This document shows, piece by piece, positions 470-12,977 of a stretch of DNA of 25,019 nucleotides (within the stretch, counting starts at the first letter, position 1; every line of letters starts with the position of its first letter). The stretch spans positions 1-25,019 of the forward strand of contig CAYIIA010000001.1 of the NCBI GenBank assembly GCA_964363385.1, written 5' to 3'. The notes beneath the pieces were generated by a model that made no database searches, was not told the DNA's origin, and saw only the letters and a list, made by a program, of their open reading frames with translations. Source of the stretch: an uncultured Gammaproteobacteria bacterium. GTDB taxonomy: Bacteria; Patescibacteriota; Patescibacteriia; 2-01-FULL-39-33. The translations under genes and the position numbers were made by a program.

Positions 470-690
470 TTAAAAAATCAGATATTGTCCGGGAGGGCGC
501 CAATTTTTCCATCCAGCGCTTTTTAAAGCGTCCGCAGTAAAAGGCTTTCTGACTTTCGGACTAGCCTGATTCTTATCAAACTGAATTATTTTATTGAAGC
601 CGCATCTTACAGAGCGGTTCTCTGCGGCTTAACCCCCCGAAGTCTCCGAGGGAACACCGCAGCGCTCCATAAACTGTTATTGCATGCTTC
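470..690 (-). ncRNA. Candidate structured non-coding transcript of unknown class (multibranch fold)
   Basis: Promoter at 697-725. A 15-bp closing helix (669-655 with 539-524) encloses three hairpins. No start-codon-led ORF. The 3' end is uncertain. Confidence 0.4.
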
Positions 691-696
691 ACTTAC

Positions 697-3906: not shown

Positions 3907-5073
3907 TTAGAATTTCCAATCGGCTCCGAAGCCAATCGTTACTGTCTTAGCCTTGAACTCGTTGCCCCGGCTGTCTTGCATGTCACCCCAGCCGTAGATG
4001 ACGTGAGTGTTGAGAGTCCAGTCGTCGTTCACTTTCTGGTGGAAACCGAGAGCCACATCCCAACCCGTGACGTCCGGCGTGAGTTGGCTTACAGTGCCCT
4101 CCGGTACGGCCGCATTCTGGTAGCCTATGCCTCCGCTTAGCCAGAGGTTTTCCTGAATCTCCTTGCGGAAACCGACATGGACACTGTAGTTGTCCCGCCA
4201 GTCCAGCAATTTGCCCTTGGTAAGCGGCAGATCATGGAAACTTAGTTTGACATCGTCCACGGTCTGGCTGTAGCCGTACCAATGAAGGGAGGCTGCCAGA
4301 AGCAATTTTTTGTTCGCTTGGCAAGACACGCTTAGACTAGTCATGTCCGGGAATGTGAACGAACTATAGAAGCCGTCCTTGAGAGACAACAGACCAAGAG
4401 GACCCGAGATCTTTGTGTTGCCTTCCAGATGCGCTTTTAATTCGCTCATGTATGACAGGCCGAGGGTCAACTTCTCTGTCTGCCACATCACTCCAACGTT
4501 TGCTCCCAGTCCTAAGCCCGTCGCTTCGCTGTCCGTGAGGATTGGGAGATATACGTTCTTAATGTCGAAGGGAGCCAGATACTTGAATTGGCACCACCCG
4601 ACATTCAATCCCGCGCCCACAGACAGATGGTCTGTCAGTCGCAGCGAGATCGCCGGCGTGATGTTCGTCAGCGAGATCAGGGTTTCGCTTTTGAAGAATC
4701 CTTTGGACCAGTCCGCATCAAAGGCAGCGCCCATTCCGTAAGGTGTCATAATCCCGATGCCCCAAACCGCATCTTTGTTTATGGACTTAGTCAGTCCAAG
4801 AAGAGGCATGGGGTAGACCATGTCATCCCGGGATCCATGCGTACCCAACCGATTTTTAATCTTGAATTTCGGTTGGATCGCCTGGACACCGAAATCCAGA
4901 GAATCTTCCAAATTAATGATCCCGGCCGGGTTATCCCTAAATAGAATCATATCGTCCGCATAGGCTCCGCTCATACCGCCATGACGGCTGCCAATACCGC
5001 CCACCGGATTGAGACCGCCAGCCCAGGCCGGCAGAGTCATAACGAGTAGAATTGTAAAGAACAGTTTTCTCAT
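3907..5073 (-). CDS. FadL/OmpP1/TodX-family outer-membrane beta-barrel transporter (388 aa)
   Basis: Signal peptide MRKLFFTILLVMTLPAWA; family N-terminal pattern GSRHGGMSGA...DNPAGI; YGMGAAF; amphipathic strands; C-terminal ...GFGADWKF beta-signal; GGAGG SD. Confidence 0.85.
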   Translation of the reverse strand: MRKLFFTILLVMTLPAWAGGLNPVGGIGSRHGGMSGAYADDMILFRDNPAGIINLEDSLDFGVQAIQPKFKIKNRLGTHGSRDDMVYPMPLLGLTKSINKDAVWGIGIMTPYGMGAAFDADWSKGFFKSETLISLTNITPAISLRLTDHLSVGAGLNVGWCQFKYLAPFDIKNVYLPILTDSEATGLGLGANVGVMWQTEKLTLGLSYMSELKAHLEGNTKISGPLGLLSLKDGFYSSFTFPDMTSLSVSCQANKKLLLAASLHWYGYSQTVDDVKLSFHDLPLTKGKLLDWRDNYSVHVGFRKEIQENLWLSGGIGYQNAAVPEGTVSQLTPDVTGWDVALGFHQKVNDDWTLNTHVIYGWGDMQDSRGNEFKAKTVTIGFGADWKF

Positions 5074-5141
5074 TTCCTTATCCTCCGTCCCTTTTAGGGA
5101 CTGTTTGTGTCAGCCAAAAACAACCTTTTCTGTTGCCATCA

Positions 5142-5201
5142 TTCTACCATATTTATCTAAATTAGTCAAGACTTGACAATTGTATTATATTAAGGTAATA
5201 T
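5142..5201. promoter_or_regulatory. Divergent sigma70 promoters: minus TTGACT-17-TAGAAT (porin) and plus TTGACA(5173-5178)-17-TAATAT(5196-5201) (RNA unit C)
   Basis: Both hexamer pairs have 17-nt spacers. Confidence 0.6.
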
Positions 5202-5206
5202 ACAGG

Positions 5207-5364
5207 TATTCATTTTATGTTTCCTTCATAAGTGGAGTAGCCCCCGGGGAAGAGGGCAAGTAGTCGTGAGGCACGCATTAGATGTACGACATCTCAATCC
5301 GTCGACCAAAGCGACATCCCCAAACAGCACCACCGACCGGGAACGCCCAGTCGGTCTTTTATTT
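5207..5364 (+). ncRNA. Candidate small RNA unit C (multi-hairpin, own promoter and terminator)
   Basis: Hairpins CTTCA/TGGAG, GCCC/GGGC, CGTG/CACG, AGATGT/ACATCT and GTCG/CGAC. Terminator ACCGAC.GGG/CCC.GTCGGT (5332-5355) plus U-rich tract. Shares TAGTCGTG-N3-CACG and AACAGC with units A and B. Confidence 0.5.
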
Positions 5365-5401
5365 AAAGCATAGCGATAAGCCTAAAACAATAATTAAGTT
5401 T

Positions 5402-6025
5402 ATGAAGCAATTTTTAACTGTTGGATTAGCAAAAAAAGATAAGAAATTTGAGAGTTTTTTGGAGGCAACAAAAAAAGAGTTGACCGCTTTTTTTAACTCA
5501 AGCGTTCCTGAACCTTTGATTTTTCTATTAGAGTCTCGGTTGGAATTGGATCTGATCTGGGGACAAAAAACCGAGAAGTGGGTTGTCGGAGGCACAAAGA
5601 ATGGATCTATCTTTATTTTAGATCCTAAGGTTTATACTCAGCAATCAAGCCATAAAGACAAGAATGATTTTTGGAAAACATTGAAACACGAGTATTGCCA
5701 TATATATTTCAGATACATCACTAAAGGTGTCAATCCTCTTTGGCTGCATGAAGGATTGGCCTCATATTTGGCTGATCAGAAGAAAATCTGTGATGATCCT
5801 TTGGATGTTTTTTCTTATTTTGATAAGCCAGGAAAAGGACTGTATAATGCCGGTTATTTCTGGGTTGATTTGTTGATTGAAAAATTCGGGAAAGCGAAGT
5901 TTTTAAGATTGATAAAATCCCTTGAACCGAAGCCTAATTTAACCGAAAATATCTTCTCCGCAAGATTTTGTAAGATATATGGCTTTAAATTCGATAAGAA
6001 TGCTCTTACTAAACTCATAAAGTAA
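5402..6025 (+). CDS. Peptidase MA-like HExxH metalloprotein (207 aa)
   Basis: LKHEYCHIY followed by WLHEGLASYLA (gluzincin-like). Start placed at ATG 5402, after the RNA C terminator. Confidence 0.75.
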   Translation: MKQFLTVGLAKKDKKFESFLEATKKELTAFFNSSVPEPLIFLLESRLELDLIWGQKTEKWVVGGTKNGSIFILDPKVYTQQSSHKDKNDFWKTLKHEYCHIYFRYITKGVNPLWLHEGLASYLADQKKICDDPLDVFSYFDKPGKGLYNAGYFWVDLLIEKFGKAKFLRLIKSLEPKPNLTENIFSARFCKIYGFKFDKNALTKLIK

Positions 6026-6028
6026 TAG

Positions 6029-6070
6029 AAAAAACGGGTCAAAATATTTGTGTATATTGCCCGTTTTTTG
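6029..6070. terminator. Intrinsic terminator after the peptidase gene
   Basis: AAAAAACGGG...CCCGTTTTTT inverted repeat. Confidence 0.7.
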
Positions 6071-6075
6071 TTGTT

Positions 6076-6281
6076 TTGACAGAGGTTTCCACATCCTCTA
6101 TAATGAAGTTAGTAAGGAGCAGTCGTGCTTCTTACAGTCCGCAAGGTACACCTCGTAGGAGGTAGTCGTGATACACGGCGAACAGCTAATTTGACTTTAC
6201 GCACCGGTAGTTCCACTATCCTAGTCAGATAAGTTTGTCGCCGTGCCTTTTTTTGTTTAAATTTACCGGTGTGTGTTGACA
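6076..6281 (+). repeat. Module copy A: promoter P1 - structured RNA - terminator - promoter P2 (dispersed repeat of 9985-10181)
   Basis: TTGACA(6076)-17-TATAAT(6099). The first ~120 nt are nearly identical to copy B. Second TTGACA at 6276. Confidence 0.9.
6111..6254 (+). ncRNA. Candidate small RNA unit A (~145 nt)
   Basis: Stems GTAAGGAGCA/TGCTTCTTAC, CC-GCAA-GG, ACCTC/GAGGT, CGTG/CACG, ATTTGACT/AGTCAGAT and CACGGCGA/TCGCCGTG, then U7. Covaries with copy B. Confidence 0.7.
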
Positions 6282-6445
6282 AAGTTTGGTATTAGTGGTA
6301 ATTTAAAATCACAGTCCTTTACAATAGATTAAAAGCCCTATTTATATTGTCGTTTGACAGGGTTAATAGTATTAAATGAAGATCTATGGTGGATTTTCAA
6401 CCCAAAGAATGGCAGGAGAATATAGGCAAGAAAGGAGGAAAAGCC

Positions 6446-6595
6446 ATGAAGCGTGACTGGAGCAAGTTTCAGCCCAAGGCGATCGTCGCTTCGTCAAAGA
6501 AGCCGAGTTATGCCAATATGGGACGCCCTTGTTGCGGCGGTTCGTGCATCGGCGGCAACTGCAAAGCCGTTCCGAAAATCGGCGGTATGTTCTGA
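6446..6595 (+). CDS. Putative RiPP precursor peptide (49 aa) with Cys/Gly-rich core CCGGSCIGGNC
   Basis: AAGGAGG SD 7 nt before the ATG; lies directly upstream of an RRE-rSAM/SPASM gene. An in-frame upstream ATG at 6386 would give 69 aa. Confidence 0.75.
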   Translation: MKRDWSKFQPKAIVASSKKPSYANMGRPCCGGSCIGGNCKAVPKIGGMF

Positions 6596-6609
6596 TCGGC
6601 GAACTTCGT

Positions 6610-6650
6610 TGGGTTCCACGGCGCAAGCGCTTTGGAACCCATATTTTTTT
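6610..6650 (+). terminator. Terminator-like hairpin between precursor and maturase
   Basis: TGGGTTCCA/TGGAACCCA 9-bp stem with an inner GCG/CGC stem, then a U7 tract. Confidence 0.7.
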
Positions 6651-6668
6651 AGAAAGGAGGCGAAAAGA

Positions 6669-7952
6669 ATGAAACAAGCGTTTCTCCCAGAAAAAGTTGT
6701 TTTCTATATTGAACCAAATGAACGGCTGGGGACCATTCATAATCTAAAAAACGATGGAAGGGCGTATGTCAATGCCGACACGATAGAGATTATTCGGCAT
6801 TTGGTCCAGGGGAATGATCTGGGTTCCTTTTTTCCATCGGAAATGCCAAGGGAAGAAAGAGAAGGGCTTATTCGGCAAAGTGAGTCCGTGTTGCGTCAGT
6901 TAGAGGATTCAGGGTTTTTGACCGAAGAGAATTCTGGCCGGCAAGGGCTGATCAAAGAAGTAAAAGCCGATCCGTCGCTTAGAGTGGTTTTCATCGAACT
7001 GACGAAAGAATGCAACTTGCGATGCAAGCATTGCTACGTTCCTGACGGTAGCGGTTCCGCAAAGCGCATGAATCGCAGCCAGATGACCTTTGCCGAGGTC
7101 TGCGGTTTAATCTCGCAGATTGATGAGCTGGGAGTGATGGAACTCCAACTTACTGGCGGAGAGCCATTTATTCTGCCATACATTCTTGGTGTTATAAAGG
7201 AAGCGCAGAACAGACTAATCCCTTGCTCTATTTTTACTAATGGAACATTAATGACTGAGGATATATTTAGATATATATCCGAAAACAATCATGGCTTGAT
7301 TTTCTACATAAGCCTGGATGGCCATCAAAAAACCCATAATGCTTTCCGTAGAAGTCAGGGAGCGTTCCAAAAGACCGTCGGGGCGATCGAAAGGTTGCTT
7401 CAAATGGATTGCGATGTCAGGATTAATACTTCTATCGGCAGGCATAACATCTCCGAGATGCGCCAATTCATCGAATTCGTGAAAAACAAATTTGGTGTTT
7501 TGCACAGGTTGGTTACTGTGGAGCCTATTGGTCGGGCAAATGCTGAAATAACCATTTCCGCCGAAGAATTCGCGGATCTGCTTCGGGAGAGTCAAAATAC
7601 GTTTGAATTCCTCGATAGCCACGACTCAATTGCCGATTGGTCGACTCCTGCCTGCGGAATCGGTTCATCAATGTTATTTATCGACGCATACGGCGATGTG
7701 TCGTTCTGCCCGACTTTAACGCAAAGAGAAAATCCTGAGTTCTTGGCAGGGAGCGTCGCCCATTCTTCGCTAAAGGATATCTGGGAAAATTCATCTGTCT
7801 TTAGACAATTCAGATGGTTGCAATGCAGAGAAGTGGAACAATGCGGTTTTCGCGAATTATGCAAAGGGGGTTGCAGAAGCCGGGCGTATCTGTCCACTGG
7901 AGACGCCAATTCGCCTGATCACGCAATGTGTTTGTTGTATAAGAAGAGTTAA
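6669..7952 (+). CDS. Radical SAM/SPASM peptide maturase with N-terminal PqqD/RRE-like domain (427 aa)
   Basis: AAGGAGG SD before ATG 6669; RRE-like GTIHNLKNDGRAYVN...VLRQLEDSGFL; CNLRCKHC (CxxxCxxC); LTGGEP; SPASM-type CGIG...GDVSFCP...CREVEQCGFRELCKGGC...AMC. Confidence 0.9.
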   Translation: MKQAFLPEKVVFYIEPNERLGTIHNLKNDGRAYVNADTIEIIRHLVQGNDLGSFFPSEMPREEREGLIRQSESVLRQLEDSGFLTEENSGRQGLIKEVKADPSLRVVFIELTKECNLRCKHCYVPDGSGSAKRMNRSQMTFAEVCGLISQIDELGVMELQLTGGEPFILPYILGVIKEAQNRLIPCSIFTNGTLMTEDIFRYISENNHGLIFYISLDGHQKTHNAFRRSQGAFQKTVGAIERLLQMDCDVRINTSIGRHNISEMRQFIEFVKNKFGVLHRLVTVEPIGRANAEITISAEEFADLLRESQNTFEFLDSHDSIADWSTPACGIGSSMLFIDAYGDVSFCPTLTQRENPEFLAGSVAHSSLKDIWENSSVFRQFRWLQCREVEQCGFRELCKGGCRSRAYLSTGDANSPDHAMCLLYKKS

Positions 7953-7957
7953 GTTTG

Positions 7958-7990
7958 AGCCTAGCCATCCGCGGTTGGGCTTTATTTTTT
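7958..7990 (+). terminator. Intrinsic terminator after the rSAM gene
   Basis: AGCCTAGCC/GGTTGGGCT stem followed by TTTATTTTTT. Confidence 0.7.
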
Positions 7991-8015
7991 GGCCTTAAAA
8001 TGGTATCATTCTTTT

Positions 8016-8786
8016 ATGAGCCTGCCGAAAGTAAAATTCATCGATATCCCGTTATCCAGAGAAATCGATTGGATGCATGGTTTTTTATTCCAAAACGAAT
8101 GGGGATGGGGGAGGTATATAATCAAGAAACATCCGAAGATTAAGAAAGTGCTTTCTTTCAAAACCGAGGCGGAGCAGGTCAAATTTTTAAAAGAGTATAT
8201 TATTAGGTTCAGGAAAGAAAATCGAAAACTGATAGAAAATAACAAAGCAGAATATCAAAGAAGGTGGAAAAGAGTAGAGAGGGATTTTTTTATCTTGCTT
8301 TCAGAAATTATGCGGATTAATTGGCCTAAAAACAGAAAAACGATCACAGCCATGGTTTCCATTAATCCAATCTGCCCCCGTTTTTTGAAAGACTGGAGTT
8401 TTTCTATTTTTTACGATTACAAGAAAATACCCCACGCATTGGAAGTTATTATGCACGAATCCTGTCATTTCTTGTATTTTGAAAAGTGGAAAAAGATGTA
8501 TCCTAAAATGAGCTTAAAAAGATTAGAATCTCCATATTTAGAATGGCATTTAAGCGAGATCATAGTGCCGATCATTTTGAATGACGGTCGTGTTCAGAAG
8601 TTATTGAAGCAAAAGGCGGTTTTTTACGCCGAGCATAAGAGGATAAAAATAGGTGTTAAAACCGCTCCAAGATATTTTACTGATTTATACAACAAGGTTG
8701 CTAAAATCGATGGTTTTGAAAAATTTTTAAAAAGATCGTGCCAGGCGATTAAAAGGAATGAAAAGCTGTTTAAGGCTCAACTTTGA
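8016..8786 (+). CDS. Hypothetical HExxH-motif (putative Zn-metalloprotease-like) protein (256 aa)
   Basis: VIMHESCHFLYF, then WHLSEIIV. Start placed at ATG 8016, after the terminator. Confidence 0.7.
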   Translation: MSLPKVKFIDIPLSREIDWMHGFLFQNEWGWGRYIIKKHPKIKKVLSFKTEAEQVKFLKEYIIRFRKENRKLIENNKAEYQRRWKRVERDFFILLSEIMRINWPKNRKTITAMVSINPICPRFLKDWSFSIFYDYKKIPHALEVIMHESCHFLYFEKWKKMYPKMSLKRLESPYLEWHLSEIIVPIILNDGRVQKLLKQKAVFYAEHKRIKIGVKTAPRYFTDLYNKVAKIDGFEKFLKRSCQAIKRNEKLFKAQL

Positions 8787-9048
8787 ATGTTAAAGCAATC
8801 ACTATAATACGGAATACAACAAAATTTATCAAAACAATAAAGATGCCTGGGGAAAGAACCCGAACAAATACCTGCAGATGGTCTGGCAGAGACTGGATCC
8901 CGGCTCGGAATTTTTAGATTTGGGCTGTGGCCAGGGAAGAGACTCGATGTTTATGGCCAAGCAGGGATTCAAGGTTGCGGCCGTTGACGAAAATAATCAA
9001 AGTGATATGATAAAGGCAAGAAGAAGTTCATTTCAACTTAGTATCTAA
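8787..9048 (+). pseudogene. Frameshifted, truncated class I methyltransferase (TehB-like N-terminus)
   Basis: The frame from 8794 reads ...AWGKNPNKYL...FLDLGCGQGRDSMFMAKQGFKVAAVD and then degenerates to TAA 9046. ATG 8787 is out of frame by one base. Confidence 0.75.
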
Positions 9049-9072
9049 AGGAGAGGAAAGGAGGTGGTAGTA

Positions 9073-9432
9073 ATGGCACATGCCACATATCCGTCAGTTT
9101 TTTGGGATAATAGTTCAAATGCCTACAAGTGTGAAATGCGGGATAAGAAAACCGGTCAAGCTTGGGGGCATGGTTACGGGATTACGCGTAACGAAGCTAT
9201 TCGTAATGCGCGTCATAACCAGCCGAAAGATCCCGTGGTTAAGAGAGCAATCGGCTGGGTGTCGCACCATCCGTTCATAGCCGGAGCCGCAGTCGGATGT
9301 TACTTGCAATACCGTCACGCCAGATATCACCAGGACGAACTGAGACCGGCTGATTATCTGGTAGCGGCGATTATGATGGGGACTATTGTTTGGGCCGCTG
9401 TCAAAGTCTTTGATTGGCTGATGGAACCCTGA
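9073..9432 (+). CDS. Hypothetical membrane protein (119 aa): small N-terminal alpha/beta domain plus two hydrophobic segments
   Basis: AAGGAGGTGG SD; hydrophobic segments FIAGAAVGCYL and YLVAAIMMGTIVWAAVKVF. Confidence 0.7.
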   Translation: MAHATYPSVFWDNSSNAYKCEMRDKKTGQAWGHGYGITRNEAIRNARHNQPKDPVVKRAIGWVSHHPFIAGAAVGCYLQYRHARYHQDELRPADYLVAAIMMGTIVWAAVKVFDWLMEP

Positions 9433-9588
9433 CCCGGCAACAGAAAGGAAAGAAGGTCGGAGTTTCAGAGCCAACATGGCTTTGGATTAGTACATATAGC
9501 CATTTAGCGGAATGGCCATCTACGCGTCACCGAAGAACATGAAAAAGAACGAGAGCAAGTCATTCCAAAAGAAGGGAGGTGTTGCCGT

Positions 9589-9672
9589 ATGAAGCAGATA
9601 GTTATCACTGAATCTCAAAGCATTGTGTCTGTCGCGCAAATCGTAATGTCAACGTCCTGCGGTATCGGATAA
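9589..9672 (+). CDS. Small peptide MKQIVITESQSIVSVAQIVMSTSCGIG (27 aa)
   Basis: GGGAGGTG SD 7 nt before the ATG. Below the ORF-track length cutoff. Confidence 0.5.
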   Translation: MKQIVITESQSIVSVAQIVMSTSCGIG

Positions 9673-9683
9673 CCAAGGAAGAG

Positions 9684-9872
9684 ATGGTTTGTCGCCCATT
9701 GTGGCTTGTCCCGTCCGACTTGTCGCTAGATAGCGACATTTTATTACCGCGGGGATTTCGCCACCGTAGTGGTACGATGACATTATGGCGTGTCGAGGAA
9801 CAGAGGGAAAGAGGTAGTCCAGAGGTCGCCCATAGAGGTAGAGTCCAGAGATACCATTTCAGATTCCGGTAA
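9684..9872 (+). CDS. Hypothetical protein (62 aa)
   Basis: Purine-rich AAGGAAGAG before the ATG; follows the 27-aa peptide by 11 nt; no recognised motif. Confidence 0.35.
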   Translation: MVCRPLWLVPSDLSLDSDILLPRGFRHRSGTMTLWRVEEQRERGSPEVAHRGRVQRYHFRFR

Positions 9873-9984
9873 GGGCTAACATCCGATGGCCACACGCACA
9901 TTTACCGAAGGTTCGTGTTGAATGCGCGATCCCACAGGAATGTCGCGCCGAAGAGCGATTTTCCTGACACGATTTTCCTGGCTC

Positions 9985-10181
9985 TTGACAGAGGTTTCCA
10001 CATCCTCTACAATGAAGTTAGTAAGGAGCAGTCGTGCTTCTTACAGTCCGCAAGGTACCTCGTATGAGGTAGTCGTGATACACGGCGAACAGCTAATTTG
10101 ACCTAACAGAACGAGTAGTCGCTATCTTGGTCAGATATGCTAGTCGCCGTTTTTTTGTCTAAATTTACATGCCACTTGACA
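9985..10181 (+). repeat. Module copy B: promoter P1 - structured RNA - terminator - promoter P2
   Basis: TTGACA(9985)-17-TACAAT(10008). Second promoter TTGACA(10176)-17-TATTAT(10199). Confidence 0.9.
10020..10156 (+). ncRNA. Candidate small RNA unit B (paralogue of unit A)
   Basis: Same stems as A, with ATTTGACC/GGTCAGAT replacing ATTTGACT/AGTCAGAT (compensatory change); ACGGCGA/TCGCCGT plus U-tract. Confidence 0.7.
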
Positions 10182-10263
10182 CAAAATAGGTTTTGTGATA
10201 TTATTATCTGAAGCATTAATGAAGGTTTTGGAGCACGTTTACAACCAAGAAAGGAGGCAGATT

Positions 10264-11226
10264 ATGCCGCACAGCCATCAGAAAAAGCTCTTGCGGCGTC
10301 TGTCGCCGTTTGAGCTGGAAAAGGAAGTCGACAGAAGGAAATCCCGGATTCATTTGTTCCAAGTCAGGGATGAAATCATCCAGGATGCGCCTGAAATCTT
10401 CGAATGTGAAGAGTTCAAAAGAGTCAAAAAGCATCCTAGCGTGAGTTGGTTCATCCGCAGTTTCTGGCAATGGAACGAGTATGCCCTGCCGATCATGAGT
10501 TCGTCTTCACATCCGAATTTCGGGATGCAGGACAAACTTTGTGAATTGGCCCACCCTTTCCTGAGAGGGACAGTCGTGGATCTAGGTTGCGGTGCTGGCG
10601 ATTTCTATAACCGTTTGTTCAAGGTCAATGGCCGGAAGATCGAAAAAATCTTCGCGGTGGATATTGACTGGGAGGCGTTAGTCCTGATGCCTCACAAGCT
10701 CAGAGAAGTCGGTTACCGAGGCAAGGTCGGCCTGATCCAAGGATCTACCATGTCTCGTCTGCCGGTTTGGAATGAAACCGCGGATTGCGTGCTTTCGAGC
10801 ATCGGAGGCGTCACCTATGCCGGCTGGTGGTTTGAGAACGACCGCCTTGTCTGCGAGGGTAGGGAGGCATTGTCCAAGTGTTTGAAAGAAGCCAACCGCG
10901 TTTTGAAGCTTGGCGGACATCTGGCATTCTCGAGCCTGAAGCCGAACCCGAATTTTGAGATGGTGCTGGCTGATTCGTTGATCTGGCCGGTAACGCATCT
11001 GAAGTTTGATGTGTTTTGGAGAGTTGCGAGGTACGGGTTCCACATCAAAAAAATCTCTCAGTTTCTCCATGAGGCTGAGAAAAGGCAGAATGCCCATTAC
11101 CTTTCTCTGGAAGAATGGGATTCCTGCCTGAAAGAAGCCGGGTTCGAGGTCGTTGTTTCGACTCTGGGCGAGTGTTACGCTAAGCAAGGCGTGGTAGTCG
11201 TTGCCAGGAAAACGCGCAATGTCTAG
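10264..11226 (+). CDS. Class I SAM-dependent methyltransferase with N-terminal extension (320 aa)
   Basis: AAGGAGG SD before ATG 10264; VVDLGCGAG; FAVDID; EANRVLKLGG. Confidence 0.85.
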   Translation: MPHSHQKKLLRRLSPFELEKEVDRRKSRIHLFQVRDEIIQDAPEIFECEEFKRVKKHPSVSWFIRSFWQWNEYALPIMSSSSHPNFGMQDKLCELAHPFLRGTVVDLGCGAGDFYNRLFKVNGRKIEKIFAVDIDWEALVLMPHKLREVGYRGKVGLIQGSTMSRLPVWNETADCVLSSIGGVTYAGWWFENDRLVCEGREALSKCLKEANRVLKLGGHLAFSSLKPNPNFEMVLADSLIWPVTHLKFDVFWRVARYGFHIKKISQFLHEAEKRQNAHYLSLEEWDSCLKEAGFEVVVSTLGECYAKQGVVVVARKTRNV

Positions 11227-11333: not shown

Positions 11334-12977
11334 ATGAATTTTTTTGCTTTATCTGGTTTAACCAACGGCTTAATAGCTTTAATGTTTGGGTTTTTTGTGG
11401 TTTATGAAAACCGTAAGAATGTTATTAATATAACTTGCGGATTATTAACATTAGCAACGGCTGTATGGTCTTTAAGTTATTGGCTTTGGCTCGGTTTTGG
11501 GTCTAGTCATGATTTGGCATTGTTTTTTGTAAGACTATTGTCGTTAGGGTCCACCTGGATTCCAATTTTTTATTTGCATTGGATTCTGTCTTTGCTCGGC
11601 CTACAGAAAAGAAAAAAATTCTTATTACTTTTTGGCTACGTAATCACGGTATTACTTAGTATATTCGGTTTTTCAGATCTTTTCGTATCCGGTGTCCAGC
11701 AGAAAATGTATTTTAATTTTTGGCCGAATGCAGGGATATTATATTCTTTTTATATTTTTATTTTTTATGGCGGCATTGTGGTTTATTGCCTTTATCTTTT
11801 AACTAGAGCGGCCATAAAAAGCAAAGGCGCTGAAAGAAGCCAATTATTATATGTCATTGCCGGTACTATTGTCGGATTTGGCGGTGGAGCAACGAATTTT
11901 TTGCTATGGTATAATATTATGATTCCCCCTTATGGAAACTTTTTAGTTGGCCTTTATCCGATAATTTTTACCCATGCCGTTACGGAGCATAGATTTATGG
12001 GGATTAAGGTAGCGACTACAAAGGTTTTTTCAGTGATGATAATAGTGATTTCTTTTATAGAACTTTTAATTTCAAGGTCTCTGCAGGAATTGGTTTTTAG
12101 ATTTTTTATTTTTGTCATAGTGGCATTTTTCGCTTTTTCGCTTTTCCGGTCTGTTTTAATTGAGATAAGACGCCGCGAAGAAGTAGAACGCCTGGCCAAG
12201 AAACTCCAGAAAGCCACCAATGATCTCAAAGCCGCCAACAAAGAACTCCAGAGATTGGATGAAGCCAAATCCGAATTCCTTTCCATTGCCTCCCACCAAT
12301 TAAGGACGCCTCTGACGATCATCAAAGGATACATTTCCATGATGGTAGAAGGCAGTTATGGTTCCATCTCGAACAAAGTGAAAGAAAACTTGGGGAAAAT
12401 GTATATCGCTTCCGAACGTTTAATCTCTTTGGTGGAGACTCTGCTTAACATCTCCCGCATCGAAGCCGGCAGATTGGAATTCAATCTGCAGCCCACGGAT
12501 TTTTCCGAAGTAGTCGGATCAATAGTGGAAGACTTCCAGCAGAAAGCCAAAGAAAAGAATTTGAAGCTGGGATTTTATCCGGAAAAGAACCTGCCCAAAG
12601 TCATGACTGACGGAGAAAAGATCAAGGAAGTCATTTCCAATTTCTTGGATAATTCCATCAAGTACACGGAAAAAGGAGAGGTCACGGTCAGCCTCCACCA
12701 AGAGAGCCAGTCCGTGGTGTTTTCCTGCCAGGATACAGGCAGGGGCGTGGAACCGGAAGATCTGCCGAGGCTGTTCAATAAGTTCGTCCGGGGCAAGGGT
12801 ATGATGCAGATACACACTGAAGGCACAGGCCTAGGATTGTATTTTGGAAGAATGGTCATTGAAAACATGGGTGGAAGGATCTGGGCGGAGAGTCCGGGCA
12901 AGAACCAGGGATCCAAATTTTCCTTTTCTCTGCCTCTGGCAAACAAGAAAGAGGCTAAGAAGATAAGTCCCGCCTAA
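11334..12977 (+). CDS. Membrane sensor histidine kinase (N-terminal 7TM/HisKA_7TM-like input, HisKA, HATPase)
   Basis: Multiple TM segments; H-box SIASHQLRTPLT; N-box NFLDNSIKYT; G-boxes DTGRG and GTGLGL. Confidence 0.92.
   Translation: MNFFALSGLTNGLIALMFGFFVVYENRKNVINITCGLLTLATAVWSLSYWLWLGFGSSHDLALFFVRLLSLGSTWIPIFYLHWILSLLGLQKRKKFLLLFGYVITVLLSIFGFSDLFVSGVQQKMYFNFWPNAGILYSFYIFIFYGGIVVYCLYLLTRAAIKSKGAERSQLLYVIAGTIVGFGGGATNFLLWYNIMIPPYGNFLVGLYPIIFTHAVTEHRFMGIKVATTKVFSVMIIVISFIELLISRSLQELVFRFFIFVIVAFFAFSLFRSVLIEIRRREEVERLAKKLQKATNDLKAANKELQRLDEAKSEFLSIASHQLRTPLTIIKGYISMMVEGSYGSISNKVKENLGKMYIASERLISLVETLLNISRIEAGRLEFNLQPTDFSEVVGSIVEDFQQKAKEKNLKLGFYPEKNLPKVMTDGEKIKEVISNFLDNSIKYTEKGEVTVSLHQESQSVVFSCQDTGRGVEPEDLPRLFNKFVRGKGMMQIHTEGTGLGLYFGRMVIENMGGRIWAESPGKNQGSKFSFSLPLANKKEAKKISPA

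What the first reader, a model, noticed from the sequence alone, without database searches (positions are those of the whole stretch)
6446..7990. Minimal RiPP-like cluster: CCGGSCIGGNC peptide + RRE-radical SAM/SPASM enzyme
Seen: an SD-led 49-aa peptide with a basic leader and four Cys in a Gly-rich core, next to a 427-aa enzyme with an RRE-like N-terminus, CxxxCxxC and a SPASM-type Cys array (Cx5Cx5Cx3C spacing). The pair forms a self-contained unit with terminators. Established: RRE-rSAM/SPASM enzymes install thioether (sactipeptide, ranthipeptide) or C-C crosslinks on adjacent peptides. Inference: a new thioether-crosslinked peptide class in a lineage with very little secondary metabolism. 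No transporter or dedicated protease is adjacent, though HExxH peptidase-like genes flank it.
Basis: partly seen in the sequence, partly recalled or inferred. Interest (0 to 1): 0.8.

Follow-up and report, generated by a model that had tools for sequence, protein, structure and literature searches.

The report
Radical-SAM peptide cassette in Patescibacteria
A gene for a small cysteine-rich peptide, the radical-SAM enzyme that most likely cross-links it, and a zinc-protease-like partner form a three-gene cassette that recurs almost unchanged in scattered ultra-small groundwater bacteria (Patescibacteria). It is a new family of a known kind of peptide natural-product system, and its product and role are still unknown.

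Summary
A 49-aa ORF with a Shine-Dalgarno site (6446-6595) precedes a 427-aa RRE / radical-SAM / SPASM enzyme (6669-7952).

A 256-aa HExxH protein (8016-8786) belongs to it in 15 of 16 related loci.

- **Precursor.** It lies upstream of every homologous enzyme whose upstream DNA is available. Its core GGSC(I/V)GGNCK is invariant, and 9 of those 10 codons vary synonymously.
- **Enzyme.** A model of the enzyme has an RRE-like N-terminus and resembles SuiB, SkfB and CteB.
- **Binding.** A complex prediction puts the conserved leader (W5, F8-S15) on that RRE. The score is 0.80 against 0.00 for the best control.
- **Regulation.** A hairpin with a U-run sits between the precursor and enzyme genes in all 12 loci read there, and it shows compensatory changes.
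- **Databases.** No Pfam or NCBIfam model covers the peptide or the HExxH protein. The enzyme scores below every curated cutoff.
- **Closest characterised relatives.** These are the enteropeptin (KGR) sactisynthases, at 34% identity with the same Cx5Cx5Cx3C spacing. They link a Cys to the adjacent residue.

Thioether chemistry is therefore likely but not shown. The cassette is rare and patchy in Patescibacteria. It is much better conserved than the neighbouring housekeeping genes, which suggests horizontal spread. I class it as a new variant of a known kind, of moderate interest.

The parts
6276..6304 (+). Putative promoter of the precursor operon: TTGACA, then a TGnTAATTT extended -10-like element.
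   Evidence: Read from the sequence. The block is conserved in 8 of 10 aligned upstream regions. That it acts as a promoter is an inference.
6379..6399 (+). Conserved inverted repeat in the 5' untranslated region (AAAATCCA...TGGATTTT in relatives). It probably forms an RNA hairpin.
   Evidence: Alignment A6. The window copy keeps the pairing through G-U wobbles, which favours an RNA structure over a DNA operator (inference).
6446..6595 (+). Precursor peptide gene (49 aa). Leader about 1-27 with W5, F8 and P10. Core about 28-49 with invariant G31-K40 (GGSCIGGNCK).
6610..6651 (+). Hairpin plus U-run between the precursor and maturase genes (terminator-like attenuator).
   Evidence: -21.4 kcal/mol, z -5.6. 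A hairpin with a U-run is present in all 12 loci, with compensatory changes.
6669..7952 (+). RRE / radical SAM / SPASM maturase (427 aa). RRE about 1-100. CxxxCxxC at residues 115-122. SPASM at 329-421.
7957..7992 (+). Conserved terminator hairpin plus U-run after the maturase gene.
   Evidence: 9 pairs, 4 of them with compensatory changes.
8001..8009 (+). Conserved TGnTAnnAT extended -10-like element, 6 nt before the HExxH start codon. The mRNA may be leaderless.
   Evidence: Alignment A5. Promoter function and a leaderless start are inferences.
8016..8786 (+). Conserved 256-aa HExxH (zincin-like) protein, the probable leader peptidase. HESCH lies at residues 147-151 and EWHLSE at 176-181.
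8812..9048 (+). Truncated relic of a TehB-like SAM methyltransferase, an accessory gene that is intact next to the cassette in some relatives.
   Evidence: Pfam TehB E 1.5e-9 on 8878-9045. Weak tblastn match to the L015 methyltransferase. Homologous intact genes are present in L015, L019 and L023.

Best explanation
This is a self-contained, horizontally spreading RiPP cassette of Patescibacteria.

1. The 49-aa peptide is the precursor.
2. Its conserved leader (W5, F8-x-P10 ... S15) docks as an extra strand on the N-terminal RRE of the radical SAM/SPASM enzyme.
3. The enzyme modifies the invariant core GGSC(I/V)GGNCK. It most likely links Cys34 and Cys39 (and Cys29 where present) to carbon atoms of nearby residues as thioethers.
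4. By analogy with its nearest characterised relatives, the enteropeptin (KGR) sactisynthases, the links may run from each Cys to the C-alpha of the residue just before it (S33-C34, N38-C39). That would give six-membered thiomorpholine rings.
5. A terminator-like hairpin between the precursor and enzyme genes keeps precursor mRNA in excess.
6. The separately transcribed HExxH protein, a zincin-like metalloprotein, probably removes the leader.

**Shown:** gene order, co-conservation, domain architecture, coding constraint and the conserved RNA hairpins.
**Predicted by models:** the RRE fold and leader docking.
**Inferred:** the chemistry, the protease role and the attenuator function.

**Odds:** precursor/maturase pair about 0.9. 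Thioether of some kind about 0.6. Adjacent-residue thiomorpholine about 0.25. HExxH protein as leader peptidase about 0.5.
For: **Co-conservation**
- The peptide ORF lies upstream of the enzyme in 15 of 15 assessable loci.
- The HExxH gene is adjacent in 15 of 16 loci. Once it sits upstream instead of downstream, in L018.

**Peptide alignment of 26 sequences**
- F8 and G31-K40 are invariant. C29 is nearly invariant and C30 is variable.
- One variant (P0155) keeps only C34 and C39.
- Synonymous variation occurs in 9 of the 10 invariant codons.

**Enzyme**
- Pfam finds Radical_SAM and SPASM.
- The AlphaFold model (pLDDT 82.5) has three strands followed by helices in residues 10-80.
- It aligns over its full length, N-terminus included, with SuiB (Z 25.6, model residues 4-427) and SkfB (Z 26.7). 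The radical SAM and SPASM domains align with CteB.
- The profile matches SkfB at 6e-25 and CteB at 1e-20.

**Complex prediction**
- The score is 0.80 against 0.00 for the best of 3 controls. That mark was reached by 58 of 80 solved complexes and 2 of 110 mismatched pairs.
- The confident interface covers enzyme residues 28-35, 37-38, 41 and 55-81, and peptide residues 5, 8-15, 17 and 26.

**Chemistry**
- The closest groups outside this family include the KGR-subfamily enzymes. P0087 sits in locus L041 with an Rgg regulator, a precursor ending KGRCPPHV, a PF00491 arginase and an MFS transporter.
- P0087 shares 34% identity over 329 aa and the same Cx5Cx5Cx3C spacing.
- In a maximum-likelihood tree the KGR clade is sister to this family with weak support (85/45). 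Both lie inside a 99/97 clade that is separate from the AhbD-like enzymes.
- A 29%-identical relative in another Patescibacteria genome (L003) also follows a Cys-rich small ORF.

**Hairpins:**

**HExxH protein**
- HExxH, E176, H178 and E181 are invariant.
- The best solved-structure matches are M1-type zinc peptidase catalytic domains, at Z 6-7.5.
- Atlas neighbours are Peptidase_MA_2, M1 and M61 families.
Against: - No modification has been observed, and no RNA run could be listed.
- All NCBIfam RiPP-maturase models score far below their cutoffs: StsB 116 against 625, PapB 103 against 340, AlbA 79 against 850.
- The sister relation to the KGR clade is weakly supported (85/45). The tree holds only proteins found by the word-based search.
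- The precursor shares no leader or core with KGR peptides beyond a G-x-C pattern.
- The SPASM region of the model has low confidence (pLDDT below 50 at 313-331 and 385-401), so the cluster geometry is not informative.
- The complex prediction places only the leader with confidence, not the core.
- The structural matches of the HExxH protein are below the level the tool regards as safe (Z below 8). It has no sequence match to any peptidase family.
- Its family is much larger than the cassette: 640 representatives.
- It occurs without an intact enzyme gene in L023, L046, L047 and L048.
- No transporter is conserved next to the cassette.
Confidence: 0.7

Rival explanations
1. The enzyme installs a modification other than a Cys-derived thioether, for example a C-C or C-O cross-link, an epimerisation, or oxidation of Cys to formylglycine. 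The invariant Cys would then serve as metal ligands, disulfides or recognition elements.
For: Enzymes with the same architecture do many different things. SuiB (Lys-Trp C-C link) is as good a structural match as the thioether synthases, and anSME scores Z 24. No curated family cutoff is reached, so the chemistry cannot be transferred by homology.
Against: The core has no aromatic residue and no Lys-Trp, Tyr or Thr-Gln type partners. Apart from Gly, S33, I/V35, N38 and K40, the only invariant side chains are the two Cys. The anSME target motif C-x-P/A-x-R is absent. The nearest characterised clade makes sactionine links.
Confidence: 0.15
2. The HExxH protein is not a leader peptidase. It is an iron/alpha-ketoglutarate-dependent HExxH oxygenase that tailors the peptide by hydroxylation or oxidative cleavage, as in ChlB-H, BpmH and PflC/PosC.
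For: HExxH proteins paired or fused with radical SAM RiPP enzymes have been shown to be alpha-KG oxygenases with a zincin-like fold (PMC12636437, read). The ChlB HExxH domain appears among the structural matches at Z 4.7.
Against: No member of the family matches any NCBIfam model at E up to 10, so the HEXXH-domain model is not hit. M1-type zinc peptidases score higher (Z 6-7.5) than the ChlB HExxH domain. From general knowledge, Patescibacteria are mostly anaerobic fermenters, which makes an oxygen-dependent step unlikely.
Confidence: 0.13
3. The small ORF is not the substrate. The enzyme is a cofactor or tetrapyrrole-type radical SAM/SPASM enzyme (AhbD/NirJ-like) and the ORF is incidental.
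For: The highest NCBIfam bit scores are to AhbD (140) and TIGR04053 (136).
Against: Those scores are far below the cutoffs (500 and 395). The tree separates the family from the AhbD-like proteins at 99/97. AhbD-type enzymes lack an RRE. The ORF is co-conserved in 15 of 15 loci under amino-acid-level selection and is predicted to bind the RRE.
Confidence: 0.03

Closest known systems
Enteropeptin (KGR-subfamily) RaS-RiPP system of Enterococcus/Streptococcus (radical SAM sactisynthase, arginase KgrD, Fe-S methyltransferase)
   Same: It is the nearest characterised enzyme clade found: 34% identity over the radical SAM and SPASM domains, with the same unusual Cx5Cx5Cx3C spacing. The precursor is short (about 49 aa). 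The target Cys is preceded by G-x (KG-R-C there, GG-S-C and GG-N-C here).
   Different: The leader and core are unrelated. There is no Rgg regulator, arginase, Fe-S methyltransferase or MFS exporter here. There are two or three Cys sites instead of one. The partner is an HExxH protein. The host is Patescibacteria rather than Bacillota.
SCIFF ranthipeptides and their maturase CteB
   Same: It is a minimal cluster of a Cys-rich precursor and one RRE-rSAM-SPASM enzyme. The core is strongly conserved across many genomes. There is no dedicated transporter, and the biological role is unclear. CteB matches the enzyme profile at 1e-20 and is among its top structural matches.
   Different: There is no sequence relation between the precursors. 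The SCIFF maturase model is not among the 25 best NCBIfam matches listed. SCIFF clusters lack the HExxH partner.
Streptosactin (GGG subfamily, GggB/StsB) and suisactin (QMP): type 2 sactipeptides
   Same: They have small Gly-rich cores with two small, unnested sactionine rings (PMC9389541). The StsB model matches residues 98-423 (116 bits).
   Different: The score is far below the StsB cutoff (625). The precursor is different, and regulation and host differ.
SuiB (streptide maturase)
   Same: It has the same three-domain architecture, RRE + radical SAM + SPASM, and aligns over the full length at Z 25.6. The leader is bound by the N-terminal domain region.
   Different: SuiB makes a Lys-Trp C-C bond, and neither residue pair exists in this core. 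Identity is 13-14%.
Fused radical SAM / alpha-KG-HExxH proteins (ChlB) and stand-alone alpha-KG-HExxH enzymes (BpmH, PflC/PosC)
   Same: A radical SAM RiPP maturase is paired with an HExxH protein of zincin-like fold.
   Different: Here the HExxH protein is a separate gene with its own promoter-like element. It has no detectable sequence similarity to that family and is structurally closer to M1-type peptidases.
Mycofactocin system (MftA/B/C)
   Same: A short precursor with an invariant core is modified by a radical SAM/SPASM enzyme. MftC is among the better NCBIfam matches (127 bits).
   Different: The score is below the cutoff (265). The RRE is fused rather than a separate MftB. There is no Val-Tyr C-terminus and no MftD/E/F or partner dehydrogenases.

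Membership tests
Radical SAM / SPASM superfamily (PF04055 + PF13186) | CxxxCxxC cluster motif in a TIM-barrel-like core | tested here: met
   C115-x3-C119-x2-C122. Pfam Radical_SAM E 7.5e-18. The motif is invariant in 28 homologues. The barrel fold matches solved rSAM enzymes at Z above 20.
Radical SAM / SPASM superfamily (PF04055 + PF13186) | C-terminal seven-Cys SPASM array for two auxiliary clusters | tested here: met
   PF13186 E 2.1e-9. C329, C347, C392, C398, C402 and C421 are invariant and C386 is nearly so. The spacing is Cx5Cx5Cx3C instead of the usual Cx2Cx5Cx3C.
RRE-dependent RiPP maturases | PqqD-like RRE domain (three strands plus helices) that binds the leader | tested here: met
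   The model has strands at 10-14, 20-25 and 30-35, then helices, with pLDDT above 90. The N-terminus aligns with those of SuiB and SkfB. The predicted complex scores 0.80 against 0.00, with the leader on strand 3 and helix 3. Pfam PqqD itself is not hit. Binding is predicted, not measured.
RRE-dependent RiPP maturases | Co-located, co-conserved precursor peptide gene | tested here: met
   15 of 15 assessable loci.
Sactipeptides / ranthipeptides | Cys sulfur linked to the C-alpha (sacti) or C-beta/gamma (ranthi) of another residue | not testable with these tools
   This needs mass spectrometry or NMR of the modified peptide.
Sactipeptides / ranthipeptides | Maturase reaches the curated score of a known maturase family (AlbA, StsB, PapB, SCIFF maturase) | tested here: not met
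   AlbA 79 against 850. StsB 116 against 625. PapB 103 against 340. The SCIFF maturase is not among the best 25.
Enteropeptin / KGR subfamily | Precursor with a KGRC core, plus an arginase, an Fe-S methyltransferase and an Rgg regulator in the cluster | tested here: not met
   The core is GGSC(I/V)GGNCK. None of those genes lies in the window or in the related loci. The enzyme is only 34% identical.
Mycofactocin maturase MftC (TIGR03962) | Score above the curated cutoff and the mft gene set | tested here: not met
   127 bits against a cutoff of 265. No mft neighbours are present.
Heme/siroheme radical SAM enzymes (AhbD, NirJ) | Score above the curated cutoff | tested here: not met
   AhbD 140 against 500. 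NirJ2 118 against 500. The family forms a separate clade at 99/97.
MA-clan (zincin) metallopeptidases, for the 8016-8786 protein | HExxH motif, a downstream third metal ligand and the zincin fold | tested here: inconclusive
   HExxH, E176, H178 and E181 are invariant. The top solved matches are M1 peptidase catalytic domains, but at Z 6-7.5. AFDB DUF4932 models match at TM 0.74-0.83. No Pfam, NCBIfam or PDB sequence match exists.
alpha-KG-dependent HExxH oxygenases, for the 8016-8786 protein | Membership of the HEXXH-domain family by sequence | tested here: not met
   None of the 26 members gives any NCBIfam hit of that kind at E up to 10. The structural Z to the ChlB HExxH domain is 4.7.

The most novel reading that the evidence does not exclude
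The product may not be an antibiotic. It may be a small peptide locked by two adjacent-residue thioether (thiomorpholine) rings that Patescibacteria use as a signal or an intracellular cofactor or metal ligand.

Three points are consistent with this reading:
- The 10-residue core is invariant across enzymes that have diverged to 50% identity.
- No exporter or immunity gene is conserved next to the cassette.
- Homologous 7TM-type histidine kinases lie next to the cassette in three different gene arrangements.

Such a molecule would be a first chemical handle on how these episymbionts sense or act on their hosts.
Probability: 0.2. Interest if true: 0.75.

Novelty: new variant of a known kind. 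Interest (0 to 1): 0.58.

Why it matters
Patescibacteria have tiny genomes and almost no recognised secondary metabolism. They live attached to other microbes, and the molecules that mediate that life are largely unknown.

Here a compact cassette, complete with its own regulatory RNA elements, is kept nearly unchanged in distantly related members. It appears to move between them, so it is likely to do something important.

For peptide natural-product chemistry, it offers three things:
- an uncurated radical SAM maturase family;
- a very small, Gly/Cys-rich invariant core that may extend the rare adjacent-residue sactionine chemistry of enteropeptins to two sites;
- a new family of HExxH partner proteins without any database model.

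The whole system is about 2.5 kb and can be tested by co-expression in E. coli.

Tried and rejected
**Searches that found nothing**
- Rfam at gathering thresholds and a tRNA scan found nothing in 5000-10500.
- Foldseek against the PDB gave no match for the HExxH model. A profile search of PDB sequences gave none either. Pfam and NCBIfam scans of 26 members gave only noise.
- Literature searches found no description of this family. The terms were Patescibacteria / candidate phyla radiation / Parcubacteria with radical SAM, RiPP, ranthipeptide and SPASM, plus the core motif itself.
- Only groundwater DNA runs hold the sequence, and no RNA run was listed, so expression and transcript ends could not be checked.
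- Earlier notes of this scan hold nothing on this family from other DNA.

**Ideas considered and dropped**
- *The upstream HExxH gene (5282-6025) is a paralogue of the downstream one.* There is no significant similarity. It is a Peptidase_MA_2-like protein.
- *The duplicated 125-180 nt promoter-RNA module (6076-6260 and 9985-10162) is part of the cassette.* It has only these two copies in the genome and is absent from all related loci.
- *Base composition marks an island.* The enzyme gene has the backbone GC content. Only the HExxH gene is somewhat lower.
- *The histidine kinase is functionally linked.* Three of about 12 contexts, against about 5 kinases per genome, is only marginal, so it is kept as a lead only.
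Full report
**Observation**

The window encodes a 49-aa peptide at 6446-6595, with GGAGG 7 nt before the ATG. A 427-aa protein follows at 6669-7952, also with a strong ribosome-binding site. The peptide has a basic N-terminal half, and its four Cys lie in the stretch CCGGSCIGGNC. Pfam finds Radical_SAM (residues 109-271) and SPASM (329-392) in the enzyme. The CxxxCxxC motif is C115/C119/C122. The SPASM cysteines are C329, C347, C386, C392, C398, C402 and C421, with the unusual spacing Cx5Cx5Cx3C. All are invariant or nearly invariant in 28 homologues.

**Host and distribution**

- The window lies in a 0.69-Mb, 85-contig genome that is 88% complete.
- Close homologues of the enzyme (39-81% identity, about 75 clusters) come from metagenomes. 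Those that carry names are labelled Patescibacteria, Parcubacteria or Azambacteria. DNA runs that hold the window are groundwater metagenomes.
- The enzyme is rare and patchy. It was found in 2 of 35 genomes of the window's own order and 3 of 401 sampled from its class. In 401 sampled from the phylum, the only match besides the window's own genome was one distant relative.
- Between the window and an Azambacteria locus (L013), the enzyme is 66% identical and the HExxH partner 68%. The nearby isoleucyl-tRNA synthetase is only 36% identical.
- The non-coding region upstream of the precursor can also be aligned across many loci.
- The genes flanking the cassette differ from locus to locus.
- Together this points to horizontal spread of a discrete cassette, although very strong purifying selection is not formally excluded.

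**The unit has three genes**

I examined 16 distinct loci: the window, L004-L008, L011, L015, L017-L019, L021, L022 and L024-L026.

- *Peptide.* The same small ORF precedes the enzyme wherever the upstream DNA is present, in 15 of 15 loci.
- *HExxH protein.* A protein of about 255 aa with an HExxH motif (window 8016-8786) is adjacent in 15 of 16 loci. In L018 it sits upstream of the peptide instead of downstream. In L015 the contig ends 204 bases upstream of the peptide, so that position cannot be judged.
It recurs near the cassette only in L017 and L047.

**The precursor**

An alignment of 26 peptides shows four regions:
- a conserved leader (M1, W5, invariant F8, P10, then a hydrophobic stretch);
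- a variable linker;
- an invariant core G31-G-S-C-(I/V)-G-G-N-C-K40;
- a semi-conserved A-V-P-K-I followed by a variable tail.

C29 is nearly invariant. C30 varies (C, G or N). One variant keeps only C34 and C39. Nine of the ten invariant codons vary synonymously among 13 loci, so selection acts on the amino-acid sequence. No Pfam or NCBIfam model matches the peptide.

**The enzyme**

- All NCBIfam matches are far below their curated cutoffs: AhbD 140 against 500, MftC 127 against 265, StsB 116 against 625, PapB 103 against 340 and AlbA 79 against 850.
- The AlphaFold model (pLDDT 82.5) shows three strands and then helices in residues 10-80 with pLDDT above 90, which is the RRE topology. A radical SAM barrel and a less confident SPASM region follow.
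- The best solved matches are the RiPP maturases SkfB (Z 26.7), SuiB (Z 25.6, aligned from residue 4 to 427) and CteB. The family profile matches SkfB at 6e-25 and CteB at 1e-20.
- A complex prediction of enzyme plus peptide scored 0.80 against 0.00 for the best of three controls. That mark was reached by 58 of 80 solved complexes and 2 of 110 mismatched pairs.
- The confident contacts are enzyme residues 28-35, 37-38, 41 and 55-81 with peptide residues 5, 8-15, 17 and 26. These are strand 3 and helix 3 of the RRE against exactly the conserved part of the leader.
- This supports binding but does not show it. The pass could partly reflect likeness to solved RRE-leader complexes.

**Regulatory anatomy**

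- A stable hairpin followed by a U-run lies between the peptide stop and the enzyme start in the window (6610-6651, -21.4 kcal/mol, z -5.6).
- Every one of 12 loci has such a hairpin with a U-run, with compensatory base changes. The two most divergent loci carry different hairpins of similar strength.
- From general knowledge of RiPP and bacteriocin operons, such partial terminators keep the precursor transcript in excess over the enzyme transcripts. That function is inferred here.
- A second conserved hairpin with a U-run follows the enzyme gene (7957-7992).
- After that hairpin comes a conserved TGnTAnnAT element, 6-7 nt before the start codon of the HExxH gene. This suggests a separate and possibly leaderless transcript.
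- Upstream of the precursor there is a conserved TTGACA / extended -10-like pair. There is also an inverted repeat (6379-6399), which the window retains through G-U wobbles, as expected for an RNA hairpin.

**The HExxH partner**

- The family has no Pfam, NCBIfam or PDB sequence match.
- Invariant residues include H147-E-x-C-H151, E176, H178 and E181.
- The model (pLDDT 77.6) matches AlphaFold DB clusters named DUF4932 at TM 0.74-0.83.
- In an exhaustive comparison with solved chains, its best matches are the catalytic domains of M1-type zinc aminopeptidases and other zincins, at Z 6-7.5. That level is only suggestive.
- Atlas neighbours are Peptidase_MA_2, M1 and M61 families at TM about 0.5.
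- A leader-peptidase role is the simplest reading. Recent work, however, shows that HExxH proteins paired with radical SAM RiPP enzymes can be iron/alpha-ketoglutarate oxygenases (PMC12636437). The ChlB HExxH domain scores Z 4.7 here, and no sequence similarity to that family was found, so I keep this as a rival at about 0.13.
- The family is much wider than the cassette, with 640 representatives at 50% identity. Relatives below about 55% identity stand alone (L046, L048). One locus has the HExxH gene without the enzyme (L023), and one has it next to a truncated enzyme relic (L047).

**Chemistry**

After the Patescibacteria family, the next-best hits form a well-supported clade (99/97) that is separate from the AhbD-like proteins. 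Within it, the family groups with proteins from Streptococcus and Enterococcus, with weak support (85/45).

One of these, P0087, lies in a cluster of six genes:
- an Rgg regulator;
- a 266-aa ORF;
- a 49-aa precursor ending KGRCPPHV;
- the radical SAM enzyme;
- a PF00491 arginase;
- an MFS transporter.

This is the KGR subfamily, whose Enterococcus cecorum products are the enteropeptins (PMC13361665). P0095, from E. cecorum, is 43% identical to P0087. The window enzyme is 34% identical to P0087 over 329 residues and shares its Cx5Cx5Cx3C spacing.

[quoted passage not shown] The invariant core here contains two G-x-C units (G-S-C and G-N-C), to compare with K-G-R-C. A more distant Patescibacteria relative (29% identity, L003) is also preceded by a Cys-rich small ORF.

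I therefore rate a Cys-derived thioether as the most likely modification (about 0.6). The specific idea of two adjacent-residue rings is a testable guess (about 0.25). None of this is shown.

**Accessory and neighbouring genes**

- A TehB-like methyltransferase follows the enzyme directly in L015. It lies near the cassette in L019 and L023, and it survives in the window only as a truncated relic (about 8812-9048).
- Homologous histidine kinases lie near the cassette in the window (11334-12977), L017 and L019 (54% and 33% identity). With about five kinases in this genome, the association is only marginal.
- No transporter is conserved.

**Verdict**

The finding is real. It is a conserved, mobile, three-gene RiPP cassette of Patescibacteria with its own regulatory elements. 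The kind is known (an RRE-dependent radical SAM/SPASM peptide maturation system). The family is new: the precursor, enzyme and HExxH partner are all outside curated models, and no paper describing it was found. The product, its chemistry and its role remain to be determined by experiment.

Noticed in passing
window 6076-6260 and 9985-10162: Two copies (88% identical) of a unit with a perfect or near-perfect sigma-70 promoter, about 150 nt without an ORF, and a T-run. Each is followed by a second promoter and a gene. The pair brackets the cassette. These are the only two copies in the genome, and none occurs in the related loci. No Rfam family matches.
   Followed up: partly
window 11334-12977; L017 3918-5555; L019 4865-9170: Homologous histidine kinases (54% and 33% identity; HisKA_7TM type in the relatives) lie within a few kb of the cassette in three different arrangements. 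The genome has about five kinases, so this is only a marginal association.
   Followed up: partly
window 8812-9048; L015 1781-2521; L019 9224-end; L023 9137-9880: A TehB-like SAM methyltransferase recurs beside the cassette. In the window only an N-terminal relic of about 70 codons is left.
   Followed up: partly
window 5282-6025; L017 11094-11732 (-); L047 2332-2808: A small Peptidase_MA_2-like HExxH protein, unrelated to the cassette's HExxH protein, lies near the cassette in three contexts. In L017 it sits beside a second, different radical SAM/SPASM gene with small flanking ORFs.
   Followed up: partly
L004 / L010 (genome G425, same family as the window's genome): The homologous enzyme gene carries one in-frame TAA, either a pseudogene or an assembly error. 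In L047 (G626) only the C-terminal half of the enzyme gene is left, upstream of an intact HExxH gene.
   Followed up: partly
L003 2817-3029 (-): A 29%-identical radical SAM/SPASM enzyme in another Patescibacteria genome is preceded by a 70-aa ORF with a Cys/Gly/Pro-rich C-terminus (seven Cys). It looks like a second, different RiPP family in the phylum.
   Followed up: no
window 9064-9432: A 122-aa ORF with a hydrophobic C-terminal half lies between the methyltransferase relic and the second RNA module. It has no Pfam match and no relative in the other loci.
   Followed up: no
window 595-691 (-): Rfam DUF3800-V RNA (62.8 bits, E 4e-12).
   Followed up: no
window 3907-5073 (-): A full-length FadL/Toluene_X-type outer-membrane barrel (Pfam E 1.4e-37), unexpected in a Patescibacteria contig.
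   Followed up: no
G000 contig C52 2810-3430 (-): A second, distant radical SAM gene in the same genome (27% identity over residues 73-290, open frame of 483 aa).
   Followed up: no
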